A DNA stretch of 32,000 bases from Erysipelotrichaceae bacterium MTC7. Its GTDB lineage: Bacteria > Bacillota_I > Bacilli_A > Erysipelotrichales > Erysipelotrichaceae. The notes below the pieces were generated by a model. That model was not told where the DNA came from and did not search any database. It worked only from the letters and a program-made list of their open reading frames with translations. How positions within the stretch are numbered: position 1 is the stretch's first letter; each line of letters begins with the position of its first letter. The position numbers and the translations under genes are program-made. The stretch spans positions 1 to 32,000 of the forward strand of contig LVZN01000007.1 in NCBI GenBank assembly GCA_001695645.1, given 5' to 3'. Positions 1-20,111 of the stretch are shown in pieces.

Positions 1-3000
1 TCCAATGTTAAGACTAGGTTGTTTGCACCGATTGTGTATTTATCTCCGTGCTCAATCACGTCTTTATCAATAACTTTGATTTGGATGGTTACTTTCGTTG
101 CTGGTTCTTCTTTTACTCTAAATACGGCAACGTAGTCACCTTTTACTTTTTCAAACGTTGTACTTTCTAATTGTACTGTTCCTGCACTCATATCTTTACG
201 TTTGAATGCTTCTGCTTGCGCTAGTCCAATTAGTTCATCGTTATCTTTGATTGCTTTGGCTTCATCAACAGTTAAAACGAGGTTGTTTGCACCGATGGTA
301 TATTTATCACCGTGTTCAATCACATCTTTGTCGATTACTTTGATTTTAACTGTTGCCTTCGTTGCTGGTTCTTCACCAACTTTGAATGTTGCAGTGTATT
401 CTTTTGCAGTTGCACTTGCTGCCACAAAATCTGTACTATCTAAAACAACCGTTCCTTCACTTAAATCACTTAAGTTCCATGCTTTTGCTTTTGCAAGTCC
501 AACAAGTTCATCGTTACTTGCGATAGCTTTTGCTTGATCAAGCGTTAGGATGATGTTATTTGCAACAAGTGTATACTTATCGCCTTCTTTAATTACATCA
601 TTATCCACAACTTTAGCAATCGCAGATACTTCATCTAATGGATCAGTGGCTGCTTTTGCTTTGACTACGACGTCGTATTCATTAACTTCAGCTTTGTATC
701 CACCATTGTCTTTTACCATTAAGTCAGCTGCAGCTACTTCATAACCCGTTGCAATGGCCCAGGCGCGAGCTCTTGTTTTTTCAAGAATTTCTGCATCTGT
801 ACCTTTTACATCATCTTTTAGGATGACATAGTTGTGAATGTCATAGGCATAGTCTTTACCGATGTATAAACCAACGGCAACAACTCTGCGTTTTATTGCG
901 GTATTGAAATCACTATCCGTTACCGTGTACTCAAGAATGTACATTCCTTTTTTACTTGTGTCTACAGTTCCAGAAACAATAACTTTGCTTGTTAAGTCAC
1001 CATCTTCTGCATCTTGGGCAAAGACTCCGTGTTTGTAATCGAAACTTGCACCAAGTGGAACTGACATAAAGGCAGGATCAACTGTTAGTATTGGAGCTTG
1101 TCCTTTTGTCACATTGACATTAACTGTTGCTTTTACACTTGGATCTGCATCCACTTTGAATGTTGTTTTGTATAAATCTACAGCATCTCTTACCGTATGT
1201 GAATCCAGGGAAACTGCTGTTTCTTGACGGGTCTGACGAATCCATCCTTTAGCACCTGTAAGTTCTTTTAATTTTGTTTTTGCATAGTTTGCATCATCTT
1301 GAATTTTCTTAGCTTCACCACGTGTAATCTCTGTGTGGTTTGCAGCGATGATGTAGTTATCAGTTGTAACAACTACGTCATAAGGAAGTACTTCAAAGGT
1401 TACTTTCTTGATAACGCCTTCATCTCCATCAATACAGAAGGTTACAGTGTAAACACCAGCTTCTGCTTTGAATCCACCTGTATCTTTTACTTTAATCGGT
1501 GCGTTGCTTCCATCTGTTGTTTTTGTCCCTTTTGCATTAGCTAGGCGAATGTAGTCTGCATCACTTACAACCAGTTTTGCATCATCATACCCCATGATGA
1601 CATCATTGGCTGTAATCTTGTATAACTCCGCCTTCACTGTAAGCTTCGTTGCTTGTGGGAACATAGCATCATGATACTTGGTTGCACTGACTGGGTTGAT
1701 ATTTCCTAATGCATCTTCTAAGAAGATTTGCACGGTATCATTTGCTTTTAGTGTTACGTTTGCAGGGAATGTGTAATTCCACGTTCCATTTGCATTCAGA
1801 ACACCTTCATTTGCCATTTTTGTTCCATTTACCGTAACCGTTAAACGTACTGGAGGATCATCATTATGTACACCATCAAGTGTCCATGTACCCTCTAAGT
1901 AGTTTCCATTTGCGTATAGCGTGTTACTTACGATAACCGGCAATGGAGGTGTTTTATCAATGGTTGTAACAACACCGGTTGTAATATCACTAGGCAATGC
2001 TTCATGTGTTCTTCCAGAATCAGGATCTTCCGTTCCACGCCAAGCGCGTAACACTTCGTATGTAGTTCCTGTTTGAATAAAGTGACCAACATCAAAGACA
2101 AAGATACCACCTTTTGCTGGTTCACCATAAATTGAAACACCCGCATGTCCATCACCCATTCCTACAGAACGAGCAACCACTTCACGTTTTGTTCCATCAG
2201 GTAATGTTTCCAGTAAGGTTACATATACTTCATCCGTCCATGCATCACGAATACCTGAAGTGATTCCTTCAGGAACGCCTACATGTCCATAAACATACTT
2301 ATCCGCATTGGTTGGTACGTAAAGTCCATTAACCACTGGACGTGCATTGTTTCCAGAGATTCGACTATACGCTTTCATTCCCATAGAACCAAATGTAGAC
2401 GTATTAAATTCACCTGGATGACTTGTACTTAGAATTTTACTAAAGTCTGCGTTGTTTAATTTAAAGTCAAGCACTGACCAACTCCGATATGGGTTGCCAT
2501 AGATACTTGTTCCTTTGTGCCAAACAGCTAAATCGGAATTCGTTGAAGTATAAGTTGATTGATCATTTACATCAAACACCAATCCACCAGTCTTATTACC
2601 TGCATCATAACGTGTATTTGCAAAATCGTAATACAGTGGATTATCATTGACGAAAACCACTTTTCGAACATTGAAAATCGCTTCATCGTCTGATTTGGTT
2701 TGTCCGCGAGCAACAAAGGTTGCTTGATCTGCTAAGGTAATATGTGCTTCTCCTGAACCATCAATATCTACGGCTGCTCCATAGTCAGCTTGAATGTTTA
2801 TCGATGAACCAAGTCCTGAAACATCAAATATTTGTCCTGATGACTTCCCAGATTTATATTGAATCCCTTGGTTTTTACCATTTGAACCAGGGTTTGCTGC
2901 AGTTCCATCACCAACGTTTAGAACCTTGATTTTCCCACCGCTTCTAACATAAAACTCATTGCTTTTTCCATAGAAACGCATCGCTGGAGCTTCTGATTTA

Positions 3001-4364
3001 GTTCCAACTTTCGAAATGTTTACTTCAGCGTTATCCGAGATATCGAAACGTTGATATCCAACCAGTCGTAAACGGAAAGTTGCTCCATAAGAGTCACTAC
3101 CTCCAAGACTTTGCACGTTCATTTTTGAACCGGCACCTGCAACAACAAACATTCCTCCGGTAATTTGTGAAATTACCCCAGGGAACGATTTTGTTCCATC
3201 CCCTTTACTGTTTACATCCAGTACAGCACCATCGGTGATTTTTACAAAAGAATCCCGAACGGGGTCGCCTTCATCATCCGTATCGCTTTCTGTTTCGTTA
3301 GCAGTCCCGGCAAAGGATACTACCGCATGGGAGTTCCCCGTACCATTTCCATTTGCTGAGGCTTTAATTTCTGTACCCGGATCTTTAATGTGTACTTGGA
3401 TCGAGTACTTCTTTCCTTCTTTCCCTAACCAAATGGCTGCATCCTCTTGCGAATGCAAGGTCATCTTTGAGGCTTTGTTTACATCCATTTTAATCATGGC
3501 ATTTTCACCAACAGGGTTCGCGTTAAAGATAACGTGTTGCGCTGTAACATTTACATTTGCACCATTGGTAATCGTAAATTCTTTTGCTACGAATACCCCT
3601 GCTGCTGAACTTTTCCCACCACTGTGCGCTCTGCTAGTTGTGGTCCATGTAATGTTACCAGTAAGTGTTATTTTACTTTCTGTTGCTTTAAATATATTGG
3701 CTGCCGTACTCCCTGTGTGTGAAAGGTTATGTAATGATACATGCCAATTGTTTGTATTTGCGTTACGATTCGTATCCGAATCCGAGTTGTCCGTATGCCG
3801 AATTAAGTAGGTACAACCTACATTCGCAACTTTGATTCCAACCAACCCTAAATTTGTTAGATTCGAAACACGAGCCAAAATAAATGCTTCATCTTTATCA
3901 TTTTGGAAATCCAACGTATAGTTATTTCCATTAATGACTAAGTTTCGATTCACCATCGGTAAGTCATTGTCATCATTCCCTGTTCTTGTGATGTTAGTTG
4001 TAAAATTAATTACACTAACACCGGAATTACTCATTGCTGAACGCAACTGATCCCAACTGCTAACATCAACTGAACTAGCTAACGTCCCTACCTGAGGTGC
4101 TACTTCTTGTTTCTGAGGTTTTTCTATTTCTCCCTCATCTACTTGTTCTGGTTCCTCTATTTCTTCTGGTTCTTGTTCTTCTTCAATCACTTCATTTTCG
4201 TCTACATCTTGATCGACTTCTTCAACGACTTCATCTGCATCTGCAGATAAAATGACATCACTGACTAACGAAGAAATTCCTAGTGAAACAAAGGTTAACA
4301 GAAAACATAAAACAACAATAAATAGTGTTTTCTGCTTTTCCCAGAAACTTTTTCTTTTTCTCAT
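1..4364 (-). CDS. Giant secreted surface adhesin, 5' part only (1454 codons; 3' end lies beyond the window start). Signal peptide, D/E-rich acidic linker, N/G/T-rich beta-helix-like region, DUF5011-type Ig-like domain, then ~88-aa tandem modules.
   Basis: Absent from the ORF track because the frame runs off the edge, so I translated it by hand. ATG at 4364 is preceded by AAAGGAGAGA (4371-4380). The product begins MRKRKSFWEKQKTLFIVVLCFLLTFVSLGISSLVSDVILSA/DADEVVEEVDQD... The frame was spot-checked open at ~3000, ~2150, ~1590 and 541-780. It contains APILTVDP..AQDAEDGDLT..GMYILEYTVTD and repeated GDKYTIGANNLVLTVDEAKAI modules. Confidence 0.85.
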   Translation of the reverse strand, partial: MRKRKSFWEKQKTLFIVVLCFLLTFVSLGISSLVSDVILSADADEVVEEVDQDVDENEVIEEEQEPEEIEEPEQVDEGEIEKPQKQEVAPQVGTLASSVDVSSWDQLRSAMSNSGVSVINFTTNITRTGNDDNDLPMVNRNLVINGNNYTLDFQNDKDEAFILARVSNLTNLGLVGIKVANVGCTYLIRHTDNSDSDTNRNANTNNWHVSLHNLSHTGSTAANIFKATESKITLTGNITWTTTSRAHSGGKSSAAGVFVAKEFTITNGANVNVTAQHVIFNANPVGENAMIKMDVNKASKMTLHSQEDAAIWLGKEGKKYSIQVHIKDPGTEIKASANGNGTGNSHAVVSFAGTANETESDTDDEGDPVRDSFVKITDGAVLDVNSKGDGTKSFPGVISQITGGMFVVAGAGSKMNVQSLGGSDSYGATFRLRLVGYQRFDISDNAEVNISKVGTKSEAPAMRFYGKSNEFYVRSGGKIKVLNVGDGTAANPGSNGKNQGIQYKSGKSSGQIFDVSGLGSSINIQADYGAAVDIDGSGEAHITLADQATFVARGQTKSDDEAIFNVRKVVFVNDNPLYYDFANTRYDAGNKTGGLVFDVNDQSTYTSTNSDLAVWHKGTSIYGNPYRSWSVLDFKLNNADFSKILSTSHPGEFNTSTFGSMGMKAYSRISGNNARPVVNGLYVPTNADKYVYGHVGVPEGITSGIRDAWTDEVYVTLLETLPDGTKREVVARSVGMGDGHAGVSIYGEPAKGGIFVFDVGHFIQTGTTYEVLRAWRGTEDPDSGRTHEALPSDITTGVVTTIDKTPPLPVIVSNTLYANGNYLEGTWTLDGVHNDDPPVRLTVTVNGTKMANEGVLNANGTWNYTFPANVTLKANDTVQIFLEDALGNINPVSATKYHDAMFPQATKLTVKAELYKITANDVIMGYDDAKLVVSDADYIRLANAKGTKTTDGSNAPIKVKDTGGFKAEAGVYTVTFCIDGDEGVIKKVTFEVLPYDVVVTTDNYIIAANHTEITRGEAKKIQDDANYAKTKLKELTGAKGWIRQTRQETAVSLDSHTVRDAVDLYKTTFKVDADPSVKATVNVNVTKGQAPILTVDPAFMSVPLGASFDYKHGVFAQDAEDGDLTSKVIVSGTVDTSKKGMYILEYTVTDSDFNTAIKRRVVAVGLYIGKDYAYDIHNYVILKDDVKGTDAEILEKTRARAWAIATGYEVAAADLMVKDNGGYKAEVNEYDVVVKAKAATDPLDEVSAIAKVVDNDVIKEGDKYTLVANNIILTLDQAKAIASNDELVGLAKAKAWNLSDLSEGTVVLDSTDFVAASATAKEYTATFKVGEEPATKATVKIKVIDKDVIEHGDKYTIGANNLVLTVDEAKAIKDNDELIGLAQAEAFKRKDMSAGTVQLESTTFEKVKGDYVAVFRVKEEPATKVTIQIKVIDKDVIEHGDKYTIGANNLVLTL
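7..640 (-). repeat. In-frame tandem coding repeats inside the adhesin gene, with periods of 264 and 273 nt (88 and 91 codons).
   Basis: GTTAAGACTAGGTTGTTTGCACCGAT at 7 recurs as GTTAAAACGAGGTTGTTTGCACCGAT at 271 and, more diverged, at 544. The first ~105 nt of copies 1 and 2 are roughly 85% identical by eye; the rest is more diverged. Confidence 0.8.
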
Positions 4365-4440
4365 ACAATTTCTCTCCTTTCATAAGTTTTCATTTTCAAA
4401 TCACACACTTGAAAACATAACTAATTTACGACAATAGTAA

Positions 4441-4467
4441 GATGTGCTTGAATCCTACCAGGTTCAT
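4441..4467 (-). promoter_or_regulatory. Possible internal ECF-type promoter in front of the adhesin gene (ATGAACCT-N-CATCTTAC).
   Basis: On the minus strand, ATGAACCT (4460-4467) sits directly after the stop of the upstream gene. The spacing from GAAC to CATC (4441-4444) is 17 nt. The heptamer and spacing are the same as in the candidate promoter at 12184-12210, but the -10 element is degenerate. Confidence 0.25.
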
Positions 4468-4469
4468 TT

Positions 4470-6917
4470 TTAGCGAAACTTTTTTGCTTTTTTTCGCCAT
4501 ACACCATATGTCCCTAAACATATGGAAAGTATCATGACAAAAACAACGTTCGCTTTATTCGATACATCACCAGCAGCAACACTTGCACTACTTGCTTGTG
4601 TGTTGCTAATTGAAGTACCATCGCTATTCTCTACTACGTGTAAATCGAAAGCTTTGTTGACTGTTACATGTACGGCAATTCGTTGTTGTTGTGTCTGCCC
4701 TATTTCATCCACAACACTTGCCGTAAATGCTAACCTATAGATTCCCCCTTCCTTTCCTACCTTTTGAATGGCAGCAAGTTGATTTGCATTTGCTTCAATG
4801 CTTGCTGCAACGACTTCATTTTGATCACCATCACAAACCGCAACTCCGGCAAATTGAATGGCTTGTGATTGTTGTAACTGCTTTGCCTCATCATATGTAA
4901 GTTCAAAGTCATGACCAGTTAAAACAAAATCCCCAATTTCATCAAAGATCGATGTGCTTTCTCCAAGCACAGTTACCTTGATTTTCTTGCTGACTTCCAC
5001 ATGGTCGACTTTGACAGTGTAAAGCAGTTCATATATGCCTCCTTGTTTGGAAACATTTTTGATGGTTTGCCACTGTGCTTCGTGAACGGTTGTTGCCTGA
5101 CTAGCACCAACAAACTCATGAATTTCACCTTGGCTGTTTCGATCCATCAAGAAGGCATGGACATTGGCATCCGCAATGATTTTTTGTTTGGTTAAACTTT
5201 GTACTTGTTCAAAGGTGTAGACAAGATCGTCTGCTCCAATAATGGCATTTGCTAGTTGATCCATGACACTATGCTTGTTGCTAATCAATACTTGTATTTC
5301 TTTTGTACAAGTTTTTCCATCTTGATTTTGAACGTCATAAGCAATTGTATAAATACCAATGTCACGAAATTCTGGATTTCCTTTAACTACGGTGTAGGTA
5401 ATTTGTTCATCACTTAGTTTGCGTGTTACCGGTGCAAGACCCGGCGTATCGCTAGCTTCTAACCAAGTCGCTTCTATTCGGTGTTTCAAACTATAATCGA
5501 TGTTGGGATTCCCCAATTCATAACGTTGCAGTGGTGCTTGTATTTCAGGTAAACCATGAACTTTTACCACTCGTGTAAACTCTGTGACATACCCTTTTTG
5601 ATCTTCGACTTTGTAAGCCACTTCATAGGTTCCTACGTTGTTGGTATTCACATTATTTTGGACAACTTCAACTTTGTCGATTAAGTTTTGTTGCTTTTCA
5701 TCATAGACTTGCATTCCCTGTAATGGATCAAAAGCATCACCAACATACATGTCCACTGTGTTTGCTTCAAACACTGGACCATCCCACCAAAGGATGGGTT
5801 GTTCAATGGTTCCAATAAACCAGAACGTATCGATGATGTGATAATCAATACAATAACTGTACGACGTTTGACTTGGATCTAACGTTAGTTCTATCTCTGT
5901 TACGTCCTGCTGCTCAATTTGCATCGGAATCGTCGTTCCACTTGGATCTTTTACAAGTGACTTGATGGTTACTTTCCCTGTCTTTTTATCACCAATGACA
6001 TGTTCCGGATTGGTATAACGTTGTCCTTCGTTGTTGTTTGGATCCAAATATGGCTCAGCATCCGAATAAAAACGTGCATAAATGGCCGCTTTCATATTTA
6101 CTAATGGAGAAAAGTCGACAATTTGATTATTGTTTAACCAGACTTGTGGTCGACTACCCGACACTTGGATACTTGCTAGTGGAGACACATCGCTAATCTT
6201 ATTGTTTCCCAGTCCCAAATAACTGATTTTTGTCAAACCAGAGAGTGGACGAATATCACTGATGTTATTGAAGTCTAAAGTTAAACGCTTCAAATCCGGA
6301 AAATTTGCTAAATGTGCAATGTTTTCTAATTTATTGTTTTGTAGATGCAAGGCATATCTCGTTAAACCTCCAGTTACTGGAAGTGTTTGTAAATCTGCAT
6401 CGGTAATGCCATTATTGTTAAGCATCAATTGCTCATCAAGTGCAGGAAAACGTTCCGCTGTAAACAACGACAAATCGTGAATCGCGTTAGTTCCTCGCTT
6501 CCAGTTATTGAACTCCATTGCACGTAAGTTTGGATACATGGCCTCACGCATCGGTTCTAAACTTTGAATGTTGTGGTCATTTAAATATAGCGTTTCAATG
6601 TTTGTCATATATGCAATTCCCGTTAAATCGCTAATGCGCTTACTTGGATCTGCGGTATTGTAACTAATTGTTCTAAGGTTTTTTAAATCGTCTGTACTAA
6701 AGTTTTCTGGTATTTCTGGGCGACTGACAAGATAGTTATAGAAATTCTCATCAGGAACAAGTTCACGTCCACGTTTATTGGTTTCTTGCGCTTGGACTTG
6801 GATATTTTCACTATTTGCTAGTTGATCCGCACTTGTTGATTGCATTAACCATGCAATGCACAAAAATGCACATAGAAAACAAATAAGTAACGTTTTGTTT
6901 TTATTTTGCTTGTTCAT
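4470..6917 (-). CDS. Internalin-like LRR surface protein with several Ig-like (DUF5011-type) domains and a C-terminal TM anchor.
   Basis: 815-aa ORF with RBS AAGGAGGT upstream and signal peptide ...WLMQSTSA/DQ. LRR units are visible (LxxLxLxxNxIxDxxPL, e.g. LTLDFNNISDIRPLSGLTKISYLGLGNNKISDVSPL). Ig-type motifs include VGDAFDPLQG..GTYEVAYKVEDQKG. The C-terminus is a hydrophobic helix followed by WRKKAKKFR. Confidence 0.85.
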   Translation of the reverse strand: MNKQNKNKTLLICFLCAFLCIAWLMQSTSADQLANSENIQVQAQETNKRGRELVPDENFYNYLVSRPEIPENFSTDDLKNLRTISYNTADPSKRISDLTGIAYMTNIETLYLNDHNIQSLEPMREAMYPNLRAMEFNNWKRGTNAIHDLSLFTAERFPALDEQLMLNNNGITDADLQTLPVTGGLTRYALHLQNNKLENIAHLANFPDLKRLTLDFNNISDIRPLSGLTKISYLGLGNNKISDVSPLASIQVSGSRPQVWLNNNQIVDFSPLVNMKAAIYARFYSDAEPYLDPNNNEGQRYTNPEHVIGDKKTGKVTIKSLVKDPSGTTIPMQIEQQDVTEIELTLDPSQTSYSYCIDYHIIDTFWFIGTIEQPILWWDGPVFEANTVDMYVGDAFDPLQGMQVYDEKQQNLIDKVEVVQNNVNTNNVGTYEVAYKVEDQKGYVTEFTRVVKVHGLPEIQAPLQRYELGNPNIDYSLKHRIEATWLEASDTPGLAPVTRKLSDEQITYTVVKGNPEFRDIGIYTIAYDVQNQDGKTCTKEIQVLISNKHSVMDQLANAIIGADDLVYTFEQVQSLTKQKIIADANVHAFLMDRNSQGEIHEFVGASQATTVHEAQWQTIKNVSKQGGIYELLYTVKVDHVEVSKKIKVTVLGESTSIFDEIGDFVLTGHDFELTYDEAKQLQQSQAIQFAGVAVCDGDQNEVVAASIEANANQLAAIQKVGKEGGIYRLAFTASVVDEIGQTQQQRIAVHVTVNKAFDLHVVENSDGTSISNTQASSASVAAGDVSNKANVVFVMILSICLGTYGVWRKKAKKFR

Positions 6918-8109
6918 GTTTACCTCCTTTCTTACGACGTCGATTCATGATAAACAAAACGACGAGTAACAAGGATACGATGAAAGGTATAGCACTTATC
7001 CCCAATCGAAATGGTAGTGAAACATCTGCTCTCATCTTCAATGAAGTAACAAAGTCATAAGAGAAAGTTCCCGCTGATGCAATGATTTCATCGTCATATA
7101 AAGTTAAGTGACTACCTTCTTTAATGTTATCTAAGCGATACGACACGCCTGGAGCTTTTGAAGGTCGCTCACGATCGGTAAAGAAGGCAAAGACAACCGT
7201 ATCTTCAACGATGCGACTAAGATCTAAAGACCATCCTGCAAATGCACGATTGTCCAGTTGTGGATCTTTGATGTCTTGGGCACTTTCCCCGTGATTGACA
7301 ATCCTCTGTTCATACAACGTGTCATCAATGTAGTACGACACCAAGTATTGTTTTAATCGATAGGTTGCATATACGTTTAAATCACTTGTAATTGGTTGTC
7401 CTTGATAGAACTTTGCAGTTCCATCGCTTTGTAAATTAAACCCAAGAAAGACGTGTCCTTCTTTTTGCAATCCATGTAAACTAAGACTTTTGTTGTGTTC
7501 CACATGATGCGTTTGTAATAACGTTGCACCATCATACACTTTTACTTGATGCATTTGGTTTGCACGAAATGCGAAATTTCCCTGGAATGCATGTTCGTAT
7601 GTTTCCGTTGCATCTCCGACCGTAATTCCTTGTGCTCGTACTTGCGTATCCACGCTTATTTTGTTTCGTGAAGAACCTGTTGTTGTAACATCTAGTTCAA
7701 TCACATGTTTTACATGATTTAGTTGCATCGATAATCCAGACTTGAGCAATGCTTGATATTCACTTTGCGTTGCGTTTTTTCCATCAATGCGAAGCACCCC
7801 TTGTGCATACGGCTTGAAGGCAACCCCTTCTTTTTCAAACACCCTTATTCGGGTATCTAAAGATCCTGAACGATTGGCAACTTGAATTTGCAATCGCACT
7901 GTGGAACCATAGGCAATTGATCCAGCACTGGAAAGTTCTTTTTCTTTTCCTGAGGTTTCAATAAGTTTTGCACTTGATGAAAGTTGTAAATCCAAATACG
8001 TTTCAGCAGCAACGACATGTTGTCTAAAGCCAAACAACATCATACTTATCATGGTGAGTATAAGTACGAGTTGTCCTAATGTTTTTTTACGTTTTTTATG
8101 ATTCGACAT
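6901..8109 (-). CDS. Secreted protein with a DUF11-like beta-sandwich, two Listeria-Bacteroides-type repeats and a C-terminal TM anchor.
   Basis: The likely start is ATG at 8109 (MSNHKKRKK...), with GGAG 11 nt upstream; the track start at 8136 looks like an extension. The signal peptide ends VVAA/ET. Motifs seen are GSTVRLQIQVANRSG, GHVFLGFNLQSDGT..VYATY and FAGWSLD. The C-terminus is hydrophobic followed by NRRRKKGGK. The gene overlaps the next gene by 17 nt. Confidence 0.75.
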   Translation of the reverse strand: MSNHKKRKKTLGQLVLILTMISMMLFGFRQHVVAAETYLDLQLSSSAKLIETSGKEKELSSAGSIAYGSTVRLQIQVANRSGSLDTRIRVFEKEGVAFKPYAQGVLRIDGKNATQSEYQALLKSGLSMQLNHVKHVIELDVTTTGSSRNKISVDTQVRAQGITVGDATETYEHAFQGNFAFRANQMHQVKVYDGATLLQTHHVEHNKSLSLHGLQKEGHVFLGFNLQSDGTAKFYQGQPITSDLNVYATYRLKQYLVSYYIDDTLYEQRIVNHGESAQDIKDPQLDNRAFAGWSLDLSRIVEDTVVFAFFTDRERPSKAPGVSYRLDNIKEGSHLTLYDDEIIASAGTFSYDFVTSLKMRADVSLPFRLGISAIPFIVSLLLVVLFIMNRRRKKGGKHEQAK

Positions 8110-8113
8110 TGGC

Positions 8114-9430
8114 TTATTGCTCCACTTGCACAACATACGAAATCATATTTCCCGAAACATCATAGATGGCTACATAAACTTCACCATGAAAGTCATGTTT
8201 GATTTTTCCATCTCTTGGGATTGGCATACGTGTTTCTTGATAGAGTACATACGATGTATCATAATCAATCCCTGATGCTCCATCTTTAAACTGTAAACTT
8301 AAATACCCGTCCGCATATCCAATCTCCAGCATCTCTGGTGCTTTGATATCAATGTTATCGATGGTTACATTACGTGTATCTTTATCGACTTGGATCTTAT
8401 ACGTTCCATTTTCACTAGCAACAAAAGATAAGACATCTTGATCAACTTCAAAATCAATGGCTTTCGCTTCTTTTGATACTTGAATATGGGAATGATCGAC
8501 TTTGTTTTTCAACTTCGCTTTTACTTCTACCTTTTTATTGGTTGGTTCTTGGTGATAACTAACGTCAATAATTTCTGCATCTTGTAGGTGCAAACTTTGA
8601 TACACGACATAGCTCGTGGTGGTTCCTAAACCTAGCACACCAACAATCGCTGCTTTTGAAAGATTGGAAAGTGTTTTCGATGCACCCACAGTCAATGGAA
8701 CAGCTGCTCCAATGGATGCTTTTCCCACATGGACCACCGAATCATAAATTTGCGTTGCTGCATTTGGTGACAATGGTTTTTGTTGCAACAATTCTTTAAA
8801 TATTTGAAAGGCAAAAGGACTAAATACAAAACTGAAGTAACTAAGTGGTGAATATCCACGTTCACTTAATCCTGGCTGAATGACTTTACGCACTCGTTTT
8901 AATCGCGTCTTCACCGTTCCTTCAGGTATTTTCATAATGTACGATATCTCTTTAACAGACAGTCCAACGTAATATTTCAACATACCCACTTCAAAGAATT
9001 TTTCTGGTAATTGATTTAGTTCGCTTTTGATTGCAGCATACACTTCTTTGCTTTCAACTTCGTGAACTTGATTGTTATCAACAACCACCATTTCTTCAAG
9101 ATTGGTGTCTTCTCCAAGTTGTACTTGGCGACTCCGCTTGCGATACAAGGTTTGTGAACTGTTGTAAGCAATTGTAAAAATCCAAGCGTGAAAACTCTTA
9201 GGATGTTTTAACATTTGTATATTTTTGTATACGCTTAAAAACGTTTCTTGTACCACTTCTTCTGCATCTGCTTGATTTTGCATCAATTTTAAACCAAAAT
9301 AATAAATTGGATTTTTGTAGAAATCGTAAATGGCATTAAACGCGTCTACATCACCGTCTTGAAAACGTTCGATGTAACTAACATCCAATTCTTTATGGTC
9401 CCTACTTTTTCCGTTTGTATCCACACTCAT
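8114..9430 (-). CDS. Sigma-70 family (ECF-like) sigma factor fused to a TM helix and a ~155-aa extracytoplasmic beta-sandwich region.
   Basis: Region 2 reads DAEEVVQETFLSVYKNIQMLKHPKSFHAWIFTIAYNSSQTLYRKR. Region 4 reads LPEKFFEVGMLKYYVGLSVKEISYIMKIPEGTVKTRLKRVRKVI. A hydrophobic segment AAIVGVLGLGTTTSYVVY follows, then beta-rich sequence containing NIDIKAPE and DGASGIDYD. A G-rich RBS (GGGGG) precedes the ATG at 9430. Confidence 0.85.
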   Translation of the reverse strand: MSVDTNGKSRDHKELDVSYIERFQDGDVDAFNAIYDFYKNPIYYFGLKLMQNQADAEEVVQETFLSVYKNIQMLKHPKSFHAWIFTIAYNSSQTLYRKRSRQVQLGEDTNLEEMVVVDNNQVHEVESKEVYAAIKSELNQLPEKFFEVGMLKYYVGLSVKEISYIMKIPEGTVKTRLKRVRKVIQPGLSERGYSPLSYFSFVFSPFAFQIFKELLQQKPLSPNAATQIYDSVVHVGKASIGAAVPLTVGASKTLSNLSKAAIVGVLGLGTTTSYVVYQSLHLQDAEIIDVSYHQEPTNKKVEVKAKLKNKVDHSHIQVSKEAKAIDFEVDQDVLSFVASENGTYKIQVDKDTRNVTIDNIDIKAPEMLEIGYADGYLSLQFKDGASGIDYDTSYVLYQETRMPIPRDGKIKHDFHGEVYVAIYDVSGNMISYVVQVEQ

Positions 9431-9475
9431 ACATCAACCCCCGTATTTTGAATTTATAAATACTCACACAATTTT

Positions 9476-10045
9476 TTATTTGCCAATGACAAATAAACCC
9501 TTACTTATAATGTCACTACGTTTTACTGCTCCAAACATTCTTGAATCTCGTGAAACTCTGCGGTTATCACCACAAAGGAAATACTCATCTTCACCTAAAA
9601 CCAGTGGTCCAAAGTCACTGGTAAATTTTTCGATTCCATGGTTGGTTTGTTTACTTTTATAACGTTCATCGAGAAAGTATTCATCGACGACTTCTCCGTT
9701 TATATACAACATGTCATCACGGTATTGAATGGTTTCACCAGGCAAACCGATGATGCGTTTGGTAAGACTCTTTTGTTCCTCATGATCGTACGTTGTAACG
9801 ATATCGAAACGTTCTATGTGCCCAAGATAGCGACTTAAAATACCCGTCAAGCCCATTTCTCCATTTTCTAAGGTTGGATACATACTCGATCCTTCCACAT
9901 AGACAATACGCACAATGCAGGTTAAACAAACATACAAGGCCAAGGTCAATGAAAACACCAGACGCAACAATTTCAACATCTCGAGTTTCCATTTGCTTCT
10001 TTTTATGTCTTTTCGCAATTCCATTTGTCTATTTGATGGACGCAT
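9476..10045 (-). CDS. Type I signal peptidase (S26 family) with an intact Ser/Lys dyad.
   Basis: Conserved boxes are GSSMYPTL (Ser), KRIIGLPGE (Lys) and GDNRRVSRDSR. There is an N-terminal TM segment. The likely start is ATG at 10045 (MRPSNRQ...), with GAAGGTGGTGA upstream; the track start at 10096 is an extension. Confidence 0.9.
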   Translation of the reverse strand: MRPSNRQMELRKDIKRSKWKLEMLKLLRLVFSLTLALYVCLTCIVRIVYVEGSSMYPTLENGEMGLTGILSRYLGHIERFDIVTTYDHEEQKSLTKRIIGLPGETIQYRDDMLYINGEVVDEYFLDERYKSKQTNHGIEKFTSDFGPLVLGEDEYFLCGDNRRVSRDSRMFGAVKRSDIISKGLFVIGK

Positions 10046-10058
10046 ATATTCACCACCT

Positions 10059-10979
10059 TCACACACTGTAATGTTTCCTTCGCTTTCTATACACATAGAT
10101 TCCTGTAACGCCTAAAACGATGGCAAAAATGTGCCACGTTTTTTTACTACCCGTTGGAATGTTTTGTTTGTTTATGTCTTGATCATCAATTACATCTAGT
10201 TGAAGTTGGAAACAGAGCACACCGTTAGACATTGCTTTGTAGGCTCCTGCATCTTCTTTATGATTGATTTCTAGTTGTAAGACTGGTCCACTAGCTATAT
10301 GCGTACGTTGACCAGTGGCATCTTGGTATTCCCAAGTGATTGATTGATCATATGGCAATGTTTCTGTTTGTTTTGTTGGTACTTGTTGCCAAGTTCCATT
10401 TTTGTATTGATAGGTTTCATTTCGACTATAGGAGAGTGCGATTTCGATATGATCACCTATCTTTTTTTGCTGGTATAACATACCTTGTTGTAAGTTGCTT
10501 TCGTCGATTCTTGTCTGATTCAAAAGAATTTGAAGACAATTCCCCTCTTCCATGACGATTTGTTTTACATCCTTACCCAAAACGCTTGCATCAAGTTGTT
10601 TAACATACCATGCGGAGCGTTTTGCTGGAACTTGCATTTTTGCGAATTGTTGGCTTCCAGTAAAGATATCATTTCCCACAAATGTTACATCCTCCTGTAT
10701 CCACAATTCTTGTAGTTCGTTGTTTTGTTTAAATGCTTGTTCAGCAATTGCGCTTACTTTTTTTCCCTTATATGTTGCAGGTATTTTTACAACGGCTTCT
10801 TTGCCTACATAACGTGTGATTTGCACACTTCCATCTGCCAAATCTTGATAATAAAAGGTTTGATCTTGGTGGATGTTTCCAGTTGGCATATGACTGTTAA
10901 TCACTGTGCTTAGGACACAGACACATAGACAACTTAAGCAAAAAAGTTCTTTTAAAAATATCCTTCTCAGTTTATGCAT
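10059..10979 (-). CDS. BspA-type LRR (LRR_5-like) surface protein with a C-terminal TM anchor.
   Basis: Hydrophobic N-terminus. The sequence VKIPATYKGKKVSAIAEQAFKQNNELQELWIQEDVTFVGNDIF is typical of BspA-like repeats. The C-terminus is WHIFAIVLGVTGIYVYRKRRK. The ATG lies 2 nt after the stop of the upstream gene. Confidence 0.7.
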   Translation of the reverse strand: MHKLRRIFLKELFCLSCLCVCVLSTVINSHMPTGNIHQDQTFYYQDLADGSVQITRYVGKEAVVKIPATYKGKKVSAIAEQAFKQNNELQELWIQEDVTFVGNDIFTGSQQFAKMQVPAKRSAWYVKQLDASVLGKDVKQIVMEEGNCLQILLNQTRIDESNLQQGMLYQQKKIGDHIEIALSYSRNETYQYKNGTWQQVPTKQTETLPYDQSITWEYQDATGQRTHIASGPVLQLEINHKEDAGAYKAMSNGVLCFQLQLDVIDDQDINKQNIPTGSKKTWHIFAIVLGVTGIYVYRKRRKHYSV

Positions 10980-10981
10980 TT

Positions 10982-12148
10982 TTATGAATTGTTTTCTTCA
11001 CTTTGTGCTTTTAGATTTTCACCGATGTTCATCTTACCAGCGATCTTCGCACCTTTTTCAATATCAATGAATTTCGCATGGATATCGCCAAGAATCATCG
11101 CCGTACGTGAGAATGAAATCTCACTATCCGCAGTTACATTCCCTTCAATAGAACCGTGAATATCCATTGAGTTTGCTTGCATGTTCCCTTTTACGAACGT
11201 TTCACTGCCGACGTATAAGTCTTGTTCCACGTTTACGTTTCCTGCAATTTTTCCATTTTCTAAACGTAGTGATGCAGCACTAACATCACCTGTAATTAAT
11301 GCATCCTCTGCGATTTCGACGCGTTCCTTACAAATTAAGTTTCCACGAATTTCCCCTTTTACCAATAATGGTGTTGTGACCGTAACATTTCCATCAATCA
11401 CAATCCCTTTGGCAAATACTGAACTTTCTGTTGGCATAGCTGGAATGATTGGTTCCACTGGTGTTTCGTGTACTTCATTTCCTTCTAAGTATTCATCCAC
11501 GCGTTCTTTAAATTTCTCTTTGTATTTCTCGTCGTTAAATTTCATCATGTCTTGTTTTTCCTCAACTTCCGTTTGTTCTTGTTTAACTGTAGCAATCGTT
11601 TGTTTTTCTACACGATCATGTTCCTGTATATCCATGACTTTTACTGCAGTTGGTTGTTTATGTCGCATGGCTACACTTGGCGTGTATGCATTTGCTTGCA
11701 ACAACACTTGTTCCATATCGTTTTGTAAACCATAAATCTTTTCGCCTTCATTTTCGATAAACTCATTGATATATGACAACATTGCATTTGCTTCGTTTAA
11801 GTCATAATCATCAATAGGACGATCGTAAAGCGAAGCCAACATGGTATTGCAACCATCCAACGTTCTTGATAACTCCCTGTAACGAGTATCCAGTTGTTTG
11901 CTTTGCGCTAAGGCTAAGCTATCTTTATCAGTTGCAACCACTTGTTCCAAGTGCTTCCAATGTTTTGAGTCCAGCACATTTGCCAACTCCTCATAGGCAC
12001 TTTTTGACAACGCAAGTTCTTTTATATATTTTGACTTGAGTAATCGTCGTACCAATAAGGTCACAATAAACGTGAGTCCCAATAAAACTAGAAACGTAAC
12101 GATAAAAGGAATGGAAAATATTCCCACTGCTAGAATCAGATATTCCAT
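10982..12148 (-). CDS. Membrane-anchored bactofilin-domain protein: N-terminal TM, helical linker, C-terminal DUF583/bactofilin domain.
   Basis: ATG at 12148 (MEYLILAVG...) is preceded by AAGAAAGGAGAAACT. A ~30-residue hydrophobic stretch is followed by RRLLKSKYIK. The C-terminal ~125 aa, GIVIDGNVTV..VKGEIRGNLIC..ITGDVSA..IAGNVNV..VKGNMQA..IEGNVTA..ILGDIHA..IAGKMNIG, is the bactofilin beta-helix repeat pattern. Confidence 0.8.
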   Translation of the reverse strand: MEYLILAVGIFSIPFIVTFLVLLGLTFIVTLLVRRLLKSKYIKELALSKSAYEELANVLDSKHWKHLEQVVATDKDSLALAQSKQLDTRYRELSRTLDGCNTMLASLYDRPIDDYDLNEANAMLSYINEFIENEGEKIYGLQNDMEQVLLQANAYTPSVAMRHKQPTAVKVMDIQEHDRVEKQTIATVKQEQTEVEEKQDMMKFNDEKYKEKFKERVDEYLEGNEVHETPVEPIIPAMPTESSVFAKGIVIDGNVTVTTPLLVKGEIRGNLICKERVEIAEDALITGDVSAASLRLENGKIAGNVNVEQDLYVGSETFVKGNMQANSMDIHGSIEGNVTADSEISFSRTAMILGDIHAKFIDIEKGAKIAGKMNIGENLKAQSEENNS

Positions 12149-12183
12149 AGTTTCTCCTTTCTTCTTCGCACAATAATAAGTTA

Positions 12184-12210
12184 GTCGCACAAAACGACTT
12201 TTAGGTTCAC
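12184..12210 (-). promoter_or_regulatory. Candidate ECF-type promoter for the seven-gene operon: GTGAAC C-N16-CGAC.
   Basis: The minus strand reads AAAAAGTGAACCTAAAAGTCGTTTTGTGCGACTAAC. GAAC is at 12205-12208 and CGAC at 12184-12187, with a 17-nt spacer. The element lies ~36 nt upstream of the ATG at 12148. It matches the AAC-N16/17-CGT/CGAC architecture of group 4 sigma promoters. Confidence 0.4.
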
Positions 12211-12337
12211 TTTTTTGATAAAAAAATAAACTTTTAAAGATTTCCTTTTTAACCGTATTTGATAAATCATGTAAGCTTCAGTAGAAAAAAGAAACATTTA
12301 AAAATTTTTGAACTTGCAAATCTTTGTTTTATAAAAT

Positions 12338-12398
12338 GAAAGGACTTCGTGGAAGGAGTAACTATAAGTCATTGCTTATGTATTTGTGAAGTCCTTTC
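12338..12398. other. Perfect 11-bp inverted repeat (GAAAGGACTTC / GAAGTCCTTTC) with a 39-nt loop, in the long region upstream of the operon.
   Basis: The arms are at 12338-12348 and 12388-12398. An inner 5-bp ATAAG/CTTAT pairing is also possible. On the minus strand the repeat is followed by ATTTTAT. Confidence 0.5.
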
Positions 12399-13738: not shown

Positions 13739-15229
13739 CTATTGATGTTTTTTCTTTTTTGCTAGAACTGTCGTTGCTCCTGCAAGTAAAATAAACATGC
13801 CAAATACACTTGTTGTATCACCCGTTGCTGGTCCATTGTTGTTTTCTGGAGCTACAGCTGGTTCTTCTTTTGGCACTGGATTTGGATCCACAATTGGATC
13901 TGGTTCCGGTTTTGTTTCTGGTTCCGGTTTTGGTTCTGGTTCTGGTTGTGGGTCTGGTTTTGTGATATCCTCTTTTACAGTCAACTCACTCATAACGTAC
14001 ATATGTGTATTTCTGAGTTGTTCTTCACCAGGATACGCTGCATCAAATTCACTTGGTGCATGTGAGTTATCAAAACACAGACTATCCGTTTCCGCAAAAG
14101 GTTCCACGAGTTTGTAGTAATAGTTTAAAGGCGGAAGTTCTTGTGCTTTCGAAACAAAGTTTGAACCTTCTATCGTCCACTTGCTATCTTCTGGCAATAA
14201 CACGTTATCCATGTTGATTCCTTCCGTGCTGACCACGTAACCTTCACTTGTTTTTTGCGCAACGTATGCAACTTTATTCGCTTTCACATTGATGGGTTCA
14301 ACCCCTTCAAACTCGCTATCAACAAACAGATAATCCATCAGTGGATAGGCATACACTGCTCCACTATAGTCGTGATAATCAACACGTCCACTTACCAAAT
14401 CAGGTAGATTCAAATACTTGAACTGATTGCCACCAATAAGCAACCATTCCAAATGCACGGCATGTGCCAATAAATTTACATCACTTATGTTTGTGTTGAT
14501 CAAATCCAAAGTATATAAACGCTCCGGACGGAAATTCAATGTTGCAAGTGGCATATCCGCTAAGATGATTTCCTCTGCATTTACACGTCCGTGAATGGTT
14601 GTCAGATTTGGTACACCCATCATAAGAAAGCGAACCAATGGTTGATCATGCTTGATATACAGTGATGTGATGGATGAATTCACATTGATGAAATCTTTCA
14701 TCATAGGTACACCAGAAACGTCAAGTGTATCCGTCTTTACACCATTCATCAACAATGTGATTTTATTTCCTGTATTTTCACCTGTTACAACCTTACTTAC
14801 ATTGGGCGAGTTAATCACCGTTACTTCTAAATCTAAGGATATGTAATATGGCTGATTGTTTGCATCCAAACCAAAAGTTGTTGCTGAACTATGTAAGCCA
14901 GTTAGATCTAATGTTTCATGTTTATATCCATTGATTTTAAGAAACTCCACATCTGTGAAATATTCAATCCCCGAAAAGTCTTGAATGTCGTATTCGTTAC
15001 AATCGAAATAAATCTCTGGATTTTTTACCATTTCGTTTAACTCATCCCCTGTACTGTAATGGTTCAGCACCAGTCTTCGAAACTCTTCATCAGGAAACGT
15101 GGTTGCATTTACTTTCACGGTTCCATAATAGGGTTGCACTTCTGTTTTTAAATTTGTTAGGTTAGGCTGTGGTAGCACAACACCACCCATGATGGATAGC
15201 ATAATACATGCTGTTGTTAGTAATTTCAT
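13739..15229 (-). CDS. LRR surface protein with a PEPEPK-type proline-rich stalk and an xPxTG-like (GPATG) C-terminal sorting signal.
   Basis: RBS GAGGAG and an N-terminal signal peptide. LRR-like units are visible (LDLINTNISDVNLLAHAVHLEWLLIGGNQFKYLNL). The stalk reads PDPQPEPEPKPEPETKPEPDP. The C-terminus is NNGPATGD followed by a hydrophobic stretch and KKKKHQ. Confidence 0.8.
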   Translation of the reverse strand: MKLLTTACIMLSIMGGVVLPQPNLTNLKTEVQPYYGTVKVNATTFPDEEFRRLVLNHYSTGDELNEMVKNPEIYFDCNEYDIQDFSGIEYFTDVEFLKINGYKHETLDLTGLHSSATTFGLDANNQPYYISLDLEVTVINSPNVSKVVTGENTGNKITLLMNGVKTDTLDVSGVPMMKDFINVNSSITSLYIKHDQPLVRFLMMGVPNLTTIHGRVNAEEIILADMPLATLNFRPERLYTLDLINTNISDVNLLAHAVHLEWLLIGGNQFKYLNLPDLVSGRVDYHDYSGAVYAYPLMDYLFVDSEFEGVEPINVKANKVAYVAQKTSEGYVVSTEGINMDNVLLPEDSKWTIEGSNFVSKAQELPPLNYYYKLVEPFAETDSLCFDNSHAPSEFDAAYPGEEQLRNTHMYVMSELTVKEDITKPDPQPEPEPKPEPETKPEPDPIVDPNPVPKEEPAVAPENNNGPATGDTTSVFGMFILLAGATTVLAKKKKHQ

Positions 15230-18445: not shown

Positions 18446-18456
18446 ATTCTCTCCTT

Positions 18457-20079: not shown

Positions 20080-20102
20080 TACTACTCCCTCGCTTCCCTG
20101 CA

Positions 20103-20111
20103 ATTATACCA
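20103..20111 (-). promoter_or_regulatory. Extended -10 promoter (TGGTATAAT) for the autolysin and cadherin-like gene pair.
   Basis: The minus strand reads GAGTTTTTTTTGGTATAATTGCAGG. The -35 is poor (TATTAA). The position excludes the track's TTG start at 20103. Confidence 0.5.

What the first reader, a model, noticed from the sequence alone, without database searches (positions are those of the whole stretch)
1..12210. Seven-gene surface module combining a sigma-TM fusion, a dedicated signal peptidase, a TM-bactofilin and four exported adhesin-like proteins
All seven genes are co-directional, with junctions from -17 to +105 nt.

The order is: TM-bactofilin, BspA-type LRR protein, S26 signal peptidase, sigma-TM-beta-sandwich fusion, DUF11-like/Listeria-Bacteroides-repeat protein, internalin-like LRR + Ig protein, and a >1450-aa adhesin.

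Three of the four exported proteins have classical signal peptides with AxA-like cleavage sites (ILSA/D, STSA/D, VAA/E), and all three complete ones end in a TM helix plus a basic tail rather than LPXTG.

Putting an own regulator, an own leader peptidase and a cytoskeletal scaffold in one operon with their likely cargo does not match any named system I recognise.

The nearest analogies are tapA-sipW-tasA and the streptococcal pilus islets that carry SipA/LepA-type peptidase homologues. This looks like a self-contained, self-regulated surface-structure or adhesin deployment module.
Basis: partly seen in the sequence, partly recalled or inferred. Interest (0 to 1): 0.78.

Follow-up and report, generated by a model that had tools for sequence, protein, structure and literature searches.

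The report
Membrane-tethered sigma factor adhesin operon
A gut/manure Erysipelotrichaceae bacterium carries an operon in which a rare sigma factor built into the membrane appears to switch on giant surface adhesins, together with a conserved three-gene set (membrane-anchored bactofilin, LRR membrane protein, signal peptidase I); the combination has not been described, but each part is of a known kind.

Summary
The seven co-directional genes and their domains are real. Corrected junctions are +2, +13, +45, +4, -17 and +105 nt, with no terminator in any gap.

They resolve into two conserved units.
- **Core (g4-g7).** An ECF-type sigma factor is fused through one TM helix to two Ig-like domains. 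It is always followed by a Flg_new membrane protein and large adhesins. About 100 50%-identity clusters among 1.84 billion proteins share this sigma architecture.
- **Triad (g1-g3).** It comprises a TM-bactofilin, a BspA-LRR membrane protein and a catalytically intact signal peptidase I. It lies before the sigma gene here and in one Breznakia genome, after the 4841-aa adhesin in another, and alone in a more distant organism.

An ECF-type promoter motif (TGAAC-N17-CGWC) precedes sigma and adhesin genes in relatives. A matrix built only from those sites scores highest in the whole window just upstream of g1. No such site precedes the sigma gene. A weaker copy precedes g7.

The module idea is therefore partly supported: co-regulation is plausible, but a "dedicated" peptidase and a bactofilin scaffold role remain untested. 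The sipW/tasA and SipA-pilus analogies fail membership tests.

I rate it a new variant of known kinds, of moderate interest.

The parts
12180..12213 (-). P1: ECF-type promoter-like site AAAGTGAAC-N17-CGAC-TAAC, about 30 nt upstream of the g1 start codon
   Evidence: The matrix was trained only on 8 sites from relatives. This site is the best hit in the whole window on both strands, at 23.8 bits; 200 shuffles gave a maximum of 22.1 and a mean of 13.3. The same layout is seen upstream of the bactofilin gene in L013, L182 and Breznakia L096.
10982..12148 (-). g1: TM-anchored bactofilin (388 aa). N-terminal TM, conserved cytoplasmic helical region, variable acidic linker, C-terminal bactofilin domain.
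   Evidence: PF04519 9e-26. Hydrophobic segment at residues 15-33. In the AlphaFold model the beta-helix at 243-375 has pLDDT about 90 and matches BacA 2n3d and the Thermus bactofilin 6rib. Family alignment.
10059..10979 (-). g2: 306-aa membrane protein. N-terminal hydrophobic segment, BspA-type LRR region, beta-rich region, I-P-T-G motif, C-terminal TM plus basic tail.
   Evidence: LRR_5 scores 18.9 bits here, but 45.7 and 29.1 bits in the orthologues. Alignment with invariant PTG and TG motifs. Hydropathy.
9476..10045 (-). g3: type I signal peptidase (P-type, S26A), 189 aa
   Evidence: PF10502 4e-39; TIGR02227 117.7 bits against a cut-off of 47. Best solved relatives are 4nv4, 4me8 and SpsB 4wvg. 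The catalytic Ser (GSSMYP) and Lys (TKRIIGLPGE) are invariant in four orthologues.
8114..9430 (-). g4: ECF-type sigma factor (residues 1-190), conserved GYxPxxYFSFxxxPF motif, linker, TM helix (about 257-280), two Ig-like beta-sandwich domains (284-438)
   Evidence: Pfam and NCBIfam hits. Alignment A1. AlphaFold model. Foldseek matches SigW, AlgU and sigma-E for the N-terminal part and tandem Ig/FN3 domains for the C-terminal part. The C-terminal half finds 105 representatives, nearly all about 430 aa with the same layout.
6901..8109 (-). g5: 402-aa surface protein. Signal peptide, N-terminal beta domain, two Flg_new repeats, C-terminal TM plus basic tail. It is the invariable downstream partner of the sigma gene.
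   Evidence: PF09479 2e-08. Alignment of 8 lineages, A2. Synteny.
4470..6917 (-). g6: 815-aa internalin-like LRR plus Ig-like plus repeat-domain adhesin, with an AGD motif, C-terminal TM and basic tail
   Evidence: LRR_4 1e-14 and Bact_surface_Ig-like 2e-13. Orthologues in L001 and L005. C-terminus.
4437..4470 (-). P2: weaker ECF-type site AAAATGAAC-N17-CATC-TTAC in the g6-g7 gap
   Evidence: 10.9 bits, ranked 4th in the window, so not significant on its own. It sits in the same position as strong sites upstream of the adhesin genes in Breznakia L001/L014 and in L005.
1..4364 (-). g7: N-terminal 1454 aa of a giant adhesin (signal peptide, Pectate_lyase_5 adhesive domain, Ig-like and repeat domains), cut by the window edge
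   Evidence: The Breznakia orthologue is 4841 aa.

Best explanation
The region is one transcription unit with an internal second promoter. It joins two conserved units.

**Unit A (g4-g7): a one-component surface regulon.** An ECF-type sigma factor is tethered in the membrane by a single TM helix and carries two Ig-like domains outside the cell. On an unknown surface cue it is activated. The most likely route is proteolytic release of the sigma domain, as for fused sigma/anti-sigma proteins such as IutY. It then directs RNA polymerase to TGAAC-N17-CGWC promoters. This raises its own expression and that of the g5 Flg_new protein, the g6 LRR/Ig adhesin and the giant g7 adhesin.

**Unit B (g1-g3): a conserved triad of three membrane proteins.** These are a TM-anchored bactofilin, a BspA-LRR protein and an active signal peptidase I. 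In the Breznakia/MTC7 lineage the triad has been brought under the same promoter type. In this organism it sits between that promoter and the sigma gene. Its likely role is to supply leader-peptidase capacity, and possibly a positioned processing site, when the very large secreted cargo is induced.

**Status of each step**
- Shown: gene order, domain identities, intact catalytic residues, synteny patterns, promoter-motif positions.
- Inferred: membrane topology, that g4 recognises the motif, activation by proteolysis, and any physical cooperation among g1, g2 and g3.
For: **Domains and junctions.**

**The g4 family has a fixed architecture and is rare.**
- A word-indexed search found 9 full-length clusters.
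- An exhaustive HMMER search with the C-terminal half alone found 105 representatives.
- Only Breznakia sp. PF5-3 and one Coprobacillaceae MAG matched among 185,579 species genomes.

**g5 partner.** A g5-like gene directly follows the sigma gene in all 8 lineages examined, and large adhesins follow wherever the contig continues.

**Promoter motif.**
- It lies upstream of the sigma genes in L001, L005, L006, L003, L007 and L015, and upstream of the adhesin genes in L001/L014 and L005.
- A matrix from those sites alone puts the window's top hit (23.8 bits, above all 200 shuffles) about 30 nt before g1. No site appears in the 45-nt g3-g4 gap.
- In Breznakia GCA_029504775.1 the relocated triad keeps a near-identical site at the same distance from its start codon (-58 against -59), and the neighbouring 446-aa gene has a 25.9-bit site.

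**Triad.**
- It is conserved as a unit in L013, L182, L096, L098 and L180, with orthology shown by alignments.
- In L180 the triad directly follows a large protein homologous to g6, E 4e-21.

**Other.**
- No terminator-like site falls in the gaps.
- Precedent for proteolytically activated sigma fusions is in PMC8999054.
Against: **Promoter evidence has limits.**
- There are no transcript data.
- The motif is of the generic ECF type (AAC...CGT), so another ECF sigma of the genome could use it.
- An unbiased exact-dyad enumeration on six sigma-upstream regions did not beat shuffles.
- P2 is weak (10.9 bits, CATC instead of CGTC).

**Fusion and topology.**
- No recognisable anti-sigma domain was found in the g4 extension.
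- The linker is modelled at low confidence, pLDDT below 50 for residues 194-283.
- The TM segment is only moderately hydrophobic.

**Triad.**
- The triad exists without the sigma/adhesin genes and without the motif in L098. It may be general housekeeping equipment merely parked here.
- Whether g3 is the only SPase I of the genome is unknown.
Confidence: 0.6

Rival explanations
1. Chance adjacency. g1-g3 is a housekeeping secretion/envelope operon (the cell's general signal peptidase with two partners). It merely lies next to an unrelated sigma-adhesin operon, and there is no functional link beyond shared orientation.
For: - The triad stands alone among housekeeping genes (ABC transporter, AhpC, RNase HII, MutS2, UvrC) in L098, with a sigma-A-like TTGACA element and no ECF-type site.
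- g3 is an ordinary active SPase I.
- The sigma core occurs without the triad upstream in several lineages.
- A sigma-70-like site (10 of 12 matches) lies further upstream at 12390..12361.
Against: - The best ECF-type site of the whole window lies directly in front of g1, and none lies in front of g4.
- Two Breznakia genomes keep the triad within the same cluster at different positions, each with the same promoter layout.
- In a third lineage the triad directly follows a g6-like adhesin.
- The g3-g4 gap is 45 nt with no terminator.
Confidence: 0.15
2. The signal peptidase g3 is the site-1 protease of the tethered sigma factor. It cuts g4 just outside the membrane, a site-2 protease then frees the sigma domain, and because g3 is in the regulon this forms a positive-feedback switch.
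For: - Signal peptidases perform site-1 cleavage of the anti-sigma factors RsiV and RsiP; for RsiP it is a specific paralogue, SipP (PMC4183432, PMC8844934).
- g4 has the N-in type II topology that a signal peptidase needs.
- The outer end of its TM segment is rich in Gly, Ala and Ser in all family members, for example GLGAAGS/Y.
- g3 lies immediately upstream of g4 here and in L013 and L182.
Against: - No conserved AxA-type site follows the TM segment.
- Most g4 family members examined have no peptidase gene next to them.
- The same triad peptidase exists where no g4 is nearby.
- Nothing here tests cleavage.
Confidence: 0.1
3. The cluster is a protein-sorting system. The conserved [AT]-G-D motif plus TM plus basic tail at the C-termini of the adhesins and of g2 is a variant LPXTG-like sorting signal. 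It would be processed by a sortase encoded elsewhere or by a component of the triad, and the bactofilin would mark the anchoring site.
For: - The motif recurs in window g6, Breznakia g6 and g7, L005 g6, the large L180 protein and all g2 orthologues.
- The Breznakia g7 C-terminus passes the TIGR01167 LPXTG_anchor cut-off, 20.9 against 15.9 bits.
Against: - The window proteins do not reach any C-terminal sorting-domain model.
- The motif lacks the Leu-Pro part.
- No sortase lies in the window or in any fetched locus.
- g5 lacks the motif.
- S26 peptidases are not known to process C-terminal anchors (own knowledge).
Confidence: 0.07

Closest known systems
Fused sigma/anti-sigma ECF factors (IutY of Pseudomonas putida, ECF243; actinobacterial ECF48/52/53 such as SCO4117)
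   Same: An ECF core is followed by a C-terminal extension with a TM helix and an extracytoplasmic domain. This gives a one-protein signalling design that is expected to be activated by regulated proteolysis (PMC8999054).
   Different: - Found in Bacillota (Erysipelotrichales).
- No zinc-finger, FecR-like or other recognisable anti-sigma domain.
- The ectodomain is two Ig-like sandwiches.
- The target genes are giant adhesins rather than iron uptake or development genes.
SigI-RsgI systems of Clostridium thermocellum and the SigV-RsiV / SigP-RsiP systems
   Same: An ECF-like sigma factor is controlled from outside the cell and drives surface or extracellular proteins. For RsiV and RsiP, a signal peptidase is part of the activation pathway (PMC4183432, PMC8844934).
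   Different: In those systems sigma and sensor are separate proteins. Here they are one polypeptide, and a role for g3 in activation is only a hypothesis.
tapA-sipW-tasA operon of Bacillus subtilis
   Same: A signal peptidase gene is embedded in an operon with the secreted surface-structure proteins it could process.
   Different: - g3 is a bacterial P-type enzyme. TIGR02227 scores 117.7 bits; the archaeal/ER-type model TIGR02228 scores only 17.5 bits against a cut-off of 51.85.
- No TasA/camelysin-type cargo or SipW-cognate signal peptides were detected.
Streptococcal pilus islets with SipA/LepA-type peptidase homologues
   Same: A peptidase-family gene lies next to adhesin genes.
   Different: - SipA-type proteins lack the catalytic residues and act with sortases on LPXTG pilins (own knowledge).
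- g3 keeps the catalytic Ser and Lys.
- No sortase or pilin genes are present.
Bactofilin scaffolds that recruit membrane enzymes (BacA-PbpC in Caulobacter, CcmA in Helicobacter; own knowledge)
   Same: A bactofilin polymer at the membrane is encoded together with bitopic membrane proteins whose active domains face outward.
   Different: - g1 has a true N-terminal TM helix and a 130-aa conserved helical region.
- The partner is a signal peptidase, not a cell-wall enzyme.
- No paper linking bactofilins to signal peptidases was found.

Membership tests
ECF (group 4) sigma-70 factors | Sigma-2 and sigma-4 domains only, with no sigma-3 domain | tested here: met
   PF04542 8.6e-13 and PF08281 6.8e-09; TIGR02937 88.2 bits against a cut-off of 42.9. 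Foldseek top hits are AlgU, SigW and sigma-E. No named equivalog cut-off is reached (SigW 118 against 209 bits).
ECF sigma factors with a membrane-spanning regulatory extension (IutY / ECF52-like) | C-terminal extension containing a TM helix and an extracytoplasmic domain | tested here: met
   AlphaFold helix at 257-280 followed by two beta-sandwich domains at pLDDT 75-91. The layout is conserved across the family. Hydropathy is moderate, so membrane insertion is inferred.
ECF sigma factors with a membrane-spanning regulatory extension (IutY / ECF52-like) | Recognisable anti-sigma domain (zinc-finger/ZAS or FecR-like) between sigma-4 and the TM helix | tested here: not met
   No Pfam hit in residues 190-438 even at E up to 1. 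There are no Cys/His clusters. Only a family-specific GYxPxxYFSFxxxPF motif is present.
ECF sigma factors with a membrane-spanning regulatory extension (IutY / ECF52-like) | Activation by site-1/site-2 proteolysis | not testable with these tools
   This needs immunoblots of g4 in protease mutants.
Bactofilins | DUF583/bactofilin beta-helical domain | tested here: met
   PF04519 90.4 bits against a cut-off of 27.9. The model matches BacA 2n3d (TMt 0.66) and 6rib (TMt 0.73). Polymerisation was not tested.
Type I signal peptidase, P-type (S26A) | Ser/Lys catalytic dyad within conserved boxes B-E | tested here: met
   SMYPT, KRIIGLPGE and GDNRRVSRDSR align to 4nv4 and 4me8 and are invariant in four orthologues. 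TIGR02227 is above its cut-off.
tapA-sipW-tasA type module | ER/archaeal-type (SipW-like) peptidase plus TasA/camelysin-family cargo | tested here: not met
   TIGR02228 scores 17.5 bits against a cut-off of 51.85. No Peptidase_M73/TasA hit in any product.
Pilus islet with SipA/LepA-type chaperone | Catalytically inactive S26 homologue, a class C sortase and LPXTG pilins | tested here: not met
   The catalytic residues are present. No sortase is found in the window or fetched loci. The window proteins have no LPXTG motif.
LPXTG / sortase-anchored surface proteins | LPXTG-type motif plus TM plus basic tail matching TIGR01167 | tested here: inconclusive
   The Breznakia g7 C-terminus scores 20.9 bits against a cut-off of 15.9. 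The large L180 protein scores 14.2. Window g2, g5 and g6 give no hit above the cut-off. A conserved [AT]GD motif is present, but without Leu-Pro.
Internalins (class 1) | Full-length match to the InlA/InlH models | tested here: not met
   NF033189 scores 66 bits against a cut-off of 1600. Only the LRR region resembles internalins.

The most novel reading that the evidence does not exclude
The triad is a cytoskeleton-organised secretion station. The membrane-anchored bactofilin polymer would hold signal peptidase I and the LRR protein g2 at a defined membrane site. Multi-thousand-residue adhesins would then be translocated, processed and deployed there. The whole station would be switched on by a sigma factor that itself senses the cell surface through its Ig-like ectodomains, with the peptidase possibly also cutting the sigma tether. 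This would be the first link between a bacterial cytoskeletal polymer and the general secretion/processing machinery.
Probability: 0.18. Interest if true: 0.78.

Novelty: new variant of a known kind. Interest (0 to 1): 0.55.

Why it matters
If the model holds, three things follow.
- It adds a Bacillota example of a one-protein transmembrane sigma factor with a new type of sensor domain, and a clear, compact regulon of giant adhesins. This could serve as a tractable system for asking how such tethered sigma factors are activated.
- It defines a previously unreported conserved gene triad that couples a bactofilin to signal peptidase I. That triad gives a concrete way to test whether secretion and processing are spatially organised in these bacteria.
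- It gives a regulatory handle on adhesin expression in Erysipelotrichaceae from insect guts and swine manure.

None of this overturns existing concepts.

Tried and rejected
**Searches that led nowhere**
- A genome-contig scan with g1 alone found no confirmed relative.
- A metagenome-contig scan with the sigma alignment returned only generic ECF sigma factors and no full-length relative.
- The word-indexed homologue search for g2 found only 2 proteins. The true orthologues were found only through synteny.
- Literature searches for bactofilin with sigma/anti-sigma, with transmembrane/Firmicutes, and with signal peptidase found nothing relevant.

**Ideas tested and set aside**
- Longer sigma fusions P0010-P0014 (494-691 aa) as a wider family: the P0014 context has no adhesins or triad.
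- A riboswitch or other known RNA in the 600-nt leader or elsewhere: there are no Rfam hits at gathering score and only noise at E below 1.
- An anti-sigma domain in g1's cytoplasmic helical region or in the g4 linker: there is no Pfam or Foldseek support.
- Similarity between the g4 ectodomain and g5: none.
- Unbiased exact-dyad enumeration of six sigma-upstream regions did not exceed shuffles. Support for the motif therefore rests on the matrix scan and on positional conservation.
- A sortase or other sorting enzyme in the rest of the window: none. That region encodes rhamnose and cell-wall polysaccharide genes.
Full report
**1. What is in the sequence**

Seven ORFs lie head to tail on the minus strand of window 1-12213. 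Three mechanical start codons need correcting.
- g1 starts at ATG 12148, behind AAAGGAG, giving 388 aa as called in relatives. The GTG at 12190 lies inside the promoter element.
- g3 starts at ATG 10045, behind GGAGGAG, giving 189 aa like its orthologues.
- g5 starts at ATG 8109, giving 402 aa.

The junctions are then +2, +13, +45, +4, -17 and +105 nt. No terminator-like hairpin falls in any gap.

Upstream lies a 600-nt spacer and a divergent diacylglycerol-kinase gene. The rest of the window encodes BioY, a cadherin-like protein, a glucosaminidase-SH3-dockerin protein, LicD, glycosyltransferases and the rhamnose pathway. There is no sortase and no Rfam family.

The identical proteins are annotated in Erysipelotrichaceae bacterium MTC7. 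This is a swine-manure isolate (PMC5034128) close to Breznakia.

**2. Domain identities**

| Gene | Finding |
|---|---|
| g1 | One N-terminal TM segment, a conserved about 130-aa helical region, a variable acidic linker and a bactofilin domain (PF04519, 90 bits; model matches BacA and the Thermus bactofilin). |
| g2 | Below the LRR_5 threshold itself, but its orthologues pass (45.7 and 29.1 bits). The family has an N-terminal hydrophobic segment followed by invariant P-T-G, and a C-terminal I-[PN]-T-G motif, TM and basic tail. |
| g3 | A canonical Gram-positive signal peptidase I with Ser and Lys intact. |
| g4 | An ECF-type sigma factor. It is followed by an invariant-rich GYxPxxYFSFxxxPF segment, a poorly modelled linker, a Gly-rich TM helix and two confidently modelled Ig-like sandwiches. 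No anti-sigma domain is detectable. |
| g5 | Signal peptide, beta domain, two Flg_new repeats, C-terminal TM anchor. |
| g6 | Internalin-like LRR plus Ig plus repeats. |
| g7 | The start of a giant adhesin with a Pectate_lyase_5 adhesive domain. The Breznakia orthologue has 4841 residues. |

**3. Two conserved units, not one**

*The core (g4-g7).* Full-length relatives of g4 are few.
- The indexed search found 9 clusters.
- An exhaustive search with residues 190-438 alone found 105 representatives. Nearly all are 415-465 aa and match at the same position.

In every lineage with DNA available, a g5-like gene follows at once, and large adhesin genes follow where the contig continues. These lineages are the window, L013, Breznakia L001/L014, L005, L006, L007, L003 and L015.

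What lies upstream of the sigma gene differs between lineages.

| Locus | Upstream of the sigma gene |
|---|---|
| Breznakia GCA_029504775.1 | DegV x3 plus a glycyl-radical protein |
| L003 | ArgS, acetyltransferase |
| L006 | HTH protein |
| L015 | infC, rplT, DUF1307 |

*The triad (g1-g3).* It is itself a conserved unit.

| Locus | Position of the triad |
|---|---|
| L013, and Breznakia GCA_029892945.1 (L182) | Directly before the sigma gene, as in the window |
| Breznakia GCA_029504775.1 (L096) | On the same contig as the sigma gene, but after the 4841-aa adhesin and two small genes |
| L180 | Directly after a large protein whose repeats and anchor are homologous to g6 (E 4e-21); the sample also contains sigma P0007 |
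| L098 | Alone, between an ABC transporter and AhpC/RNase HII/MutS2/UvrC |

**4. The promoter evidence**

Upstream of the sigma genes of relatives I found AAA-TGAAC-N17-CG(T/A)C-(T)TAC. The same element precedes the adhesin genes of Breznakia and L005.

A weight matrix was built from eight such sites, none taken from the window.
- Its best score in the whole window on both strands is 23.8 bits at 12213..12180, about 30 nt before g1. The maximum of 200 shuffles was 22.1 and the mean 13.3.
- There is no hit in the g3-g4 gap.
- The g6-g7 gap holds a weaker copy (10.9 bits; CATC in place of CGTC). It occupies the same position as the strong Breznakia and L005 sites.

In Breznakia L096 the relocated triad has a near-identical element at -58 from its start codon, against -59 in the window. 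The 446-aa gene before it has a 25.9-bit site. The stand-alone triads of L098 and L180 have none.

An unbiased exact-dyad count on six regions was not significant. The case therefore rests on the matrix scan and on positional conservation. The motif is of the general ECF type (own knowledge of the SigW/SigV/SigM/SigX promoters), so assigning it to g4 is an inference from the usual autoregulation of ECF sigma factors.

**5. Most likely mechanism**

- g4 sits in the membrane with the sigma domain inside and the Ig-like domains outside.
- A surface cue leads to release or activation of the sigma domain. Fused sigma/anti-sigma factors such as IutY are freed by sequential proteolysis (PMC8999054).
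- RNA polymerase carrying g4 then fires P1 and P2.
- This produces more g4, the g5/g6/g7 surface proteins and, in this lineage, the triad.
- The triad plausibly provides leader-peptidase capacity for very large cargo. It may also provide spatial organisation through the bactofilin, by analogy with bactofilins that recruit bitopic enzymes (own knowledge).

Topology, cue, proteolysis and any g1-g2-g3 complex are all inferred.

**6. Rivals**

- Chance adjacency of a housekeeping triad. This is supported by L098. It is opposed by the promoter position and by the repeated linkage to the adhesin genes.
- g3 as the site-1 protease of g4. RsiV and RsiP provide precedent (PMC4183432, PMC8844934). However, there is no conserved cleavage site and no general co-occurrence.
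- A variant LPXTG-like sorting system built on the [AT]GD tails. The motif is conserved, and one orthologue passes TIGR01167, but no sortase was seen.

**7. Comparison with what is known, and verdict**

The sigma fusion is a new variant of the known class of ECF factors with membrane-spanning extensions. The peptidase and the bactofilin are ordinary members of their families. The sipW/tasA and SipA-pilus analogies fail their defining features.

Two things are new: the combination of a tethered sigma with an adhesin regulon, and the bactofilin / LRR protein / SPase I triad. I found no literature on either.

Noticed in passing
window 4470-4600 (g6 C-terminus); also L001 g6, L096 g7, L005 g6 and the large L180 protein: The C-terminal anchors share a conserved [AT]-G-D motif 5-8 residues before the TM plus basic tail (VAAGDVSN, VSAGDRHG, VTTGDDTN, IGAGDINN, TDTGDVTN). 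The Breznakia giant adhesin passes the LPXTG_anchor model although it lacks Leu-Pro. This may be a variant sorting signal.
   Followed up: partly
window 10059-10979 (g2) and its orthologues in L013, L096 and L098: The g2 family has an invariant P-T-G right after the N-terminal hydrophobic segment and an invariant T-G (I-[PN]-T-G) right before the C-terminal TM. It therefore has similar short motifs at both membrane boundaries. Their meaning is unknown.
   Followed up: no
window 12183-12199: A 5-6 bp inverted repeat (AGTCG-N7-CGACT) spans the spacer and the -10 element of promoter P1. L013 keeps the pairing with a slightly different stem (AGTCGT-N5-ACGACT). It could be an operator, or it could be incidental.
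   Followed up: no
L013 3604-4918: In this close relative the sigma-fusion gene is split into 67-aa and 366-aa ORFs. This is either a frameshift/pseudogene or an assembly error.
   Followed up: no
L005 113-146 and about 330-363: Two tandem ECF-type sites lie upstream of one sigma-fusion gene, about 215 nt apart, with no ORF called between them.
   Followed up: no
window 17108-20103: A cadherin-like beta-sandwich protein lies next to a glucosaminidase-SH3-dockerin type I protein. A dockerin module in an Erysipelotrichaceae genome hints at cohesin-dockerin surface assembly.
   Followed up: no
window 13739-15229: A 496-aa ORF has an acidic Pro/Glu-rich repeat near its C-terminus (a weak PARP-repeat hit only). 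It is conserved next to the cluster in the same-species contigs L011/L012. Its function is unknown.
   Followed up: no
L096 7664-9691: In Breznakia a 151-aa lipoprotein and a 446-aa secreted protein (weak Cthe_2159 carbohydrate-binding hit) lie between the giant adhesin and the triad. The 446-aa gene has a strong ECF-type site (25.9 bits), so the regulon is larger there than in the window.
   Followed up: partly
window 12361-12390: A sigma-70-like promoter match (TTCACA-18-TATAGT, 10 of 12) lies about 170 nt upstream of P1. It could give basal, sigma-fusion-independent expression of g1-g3.
   Followed up: no
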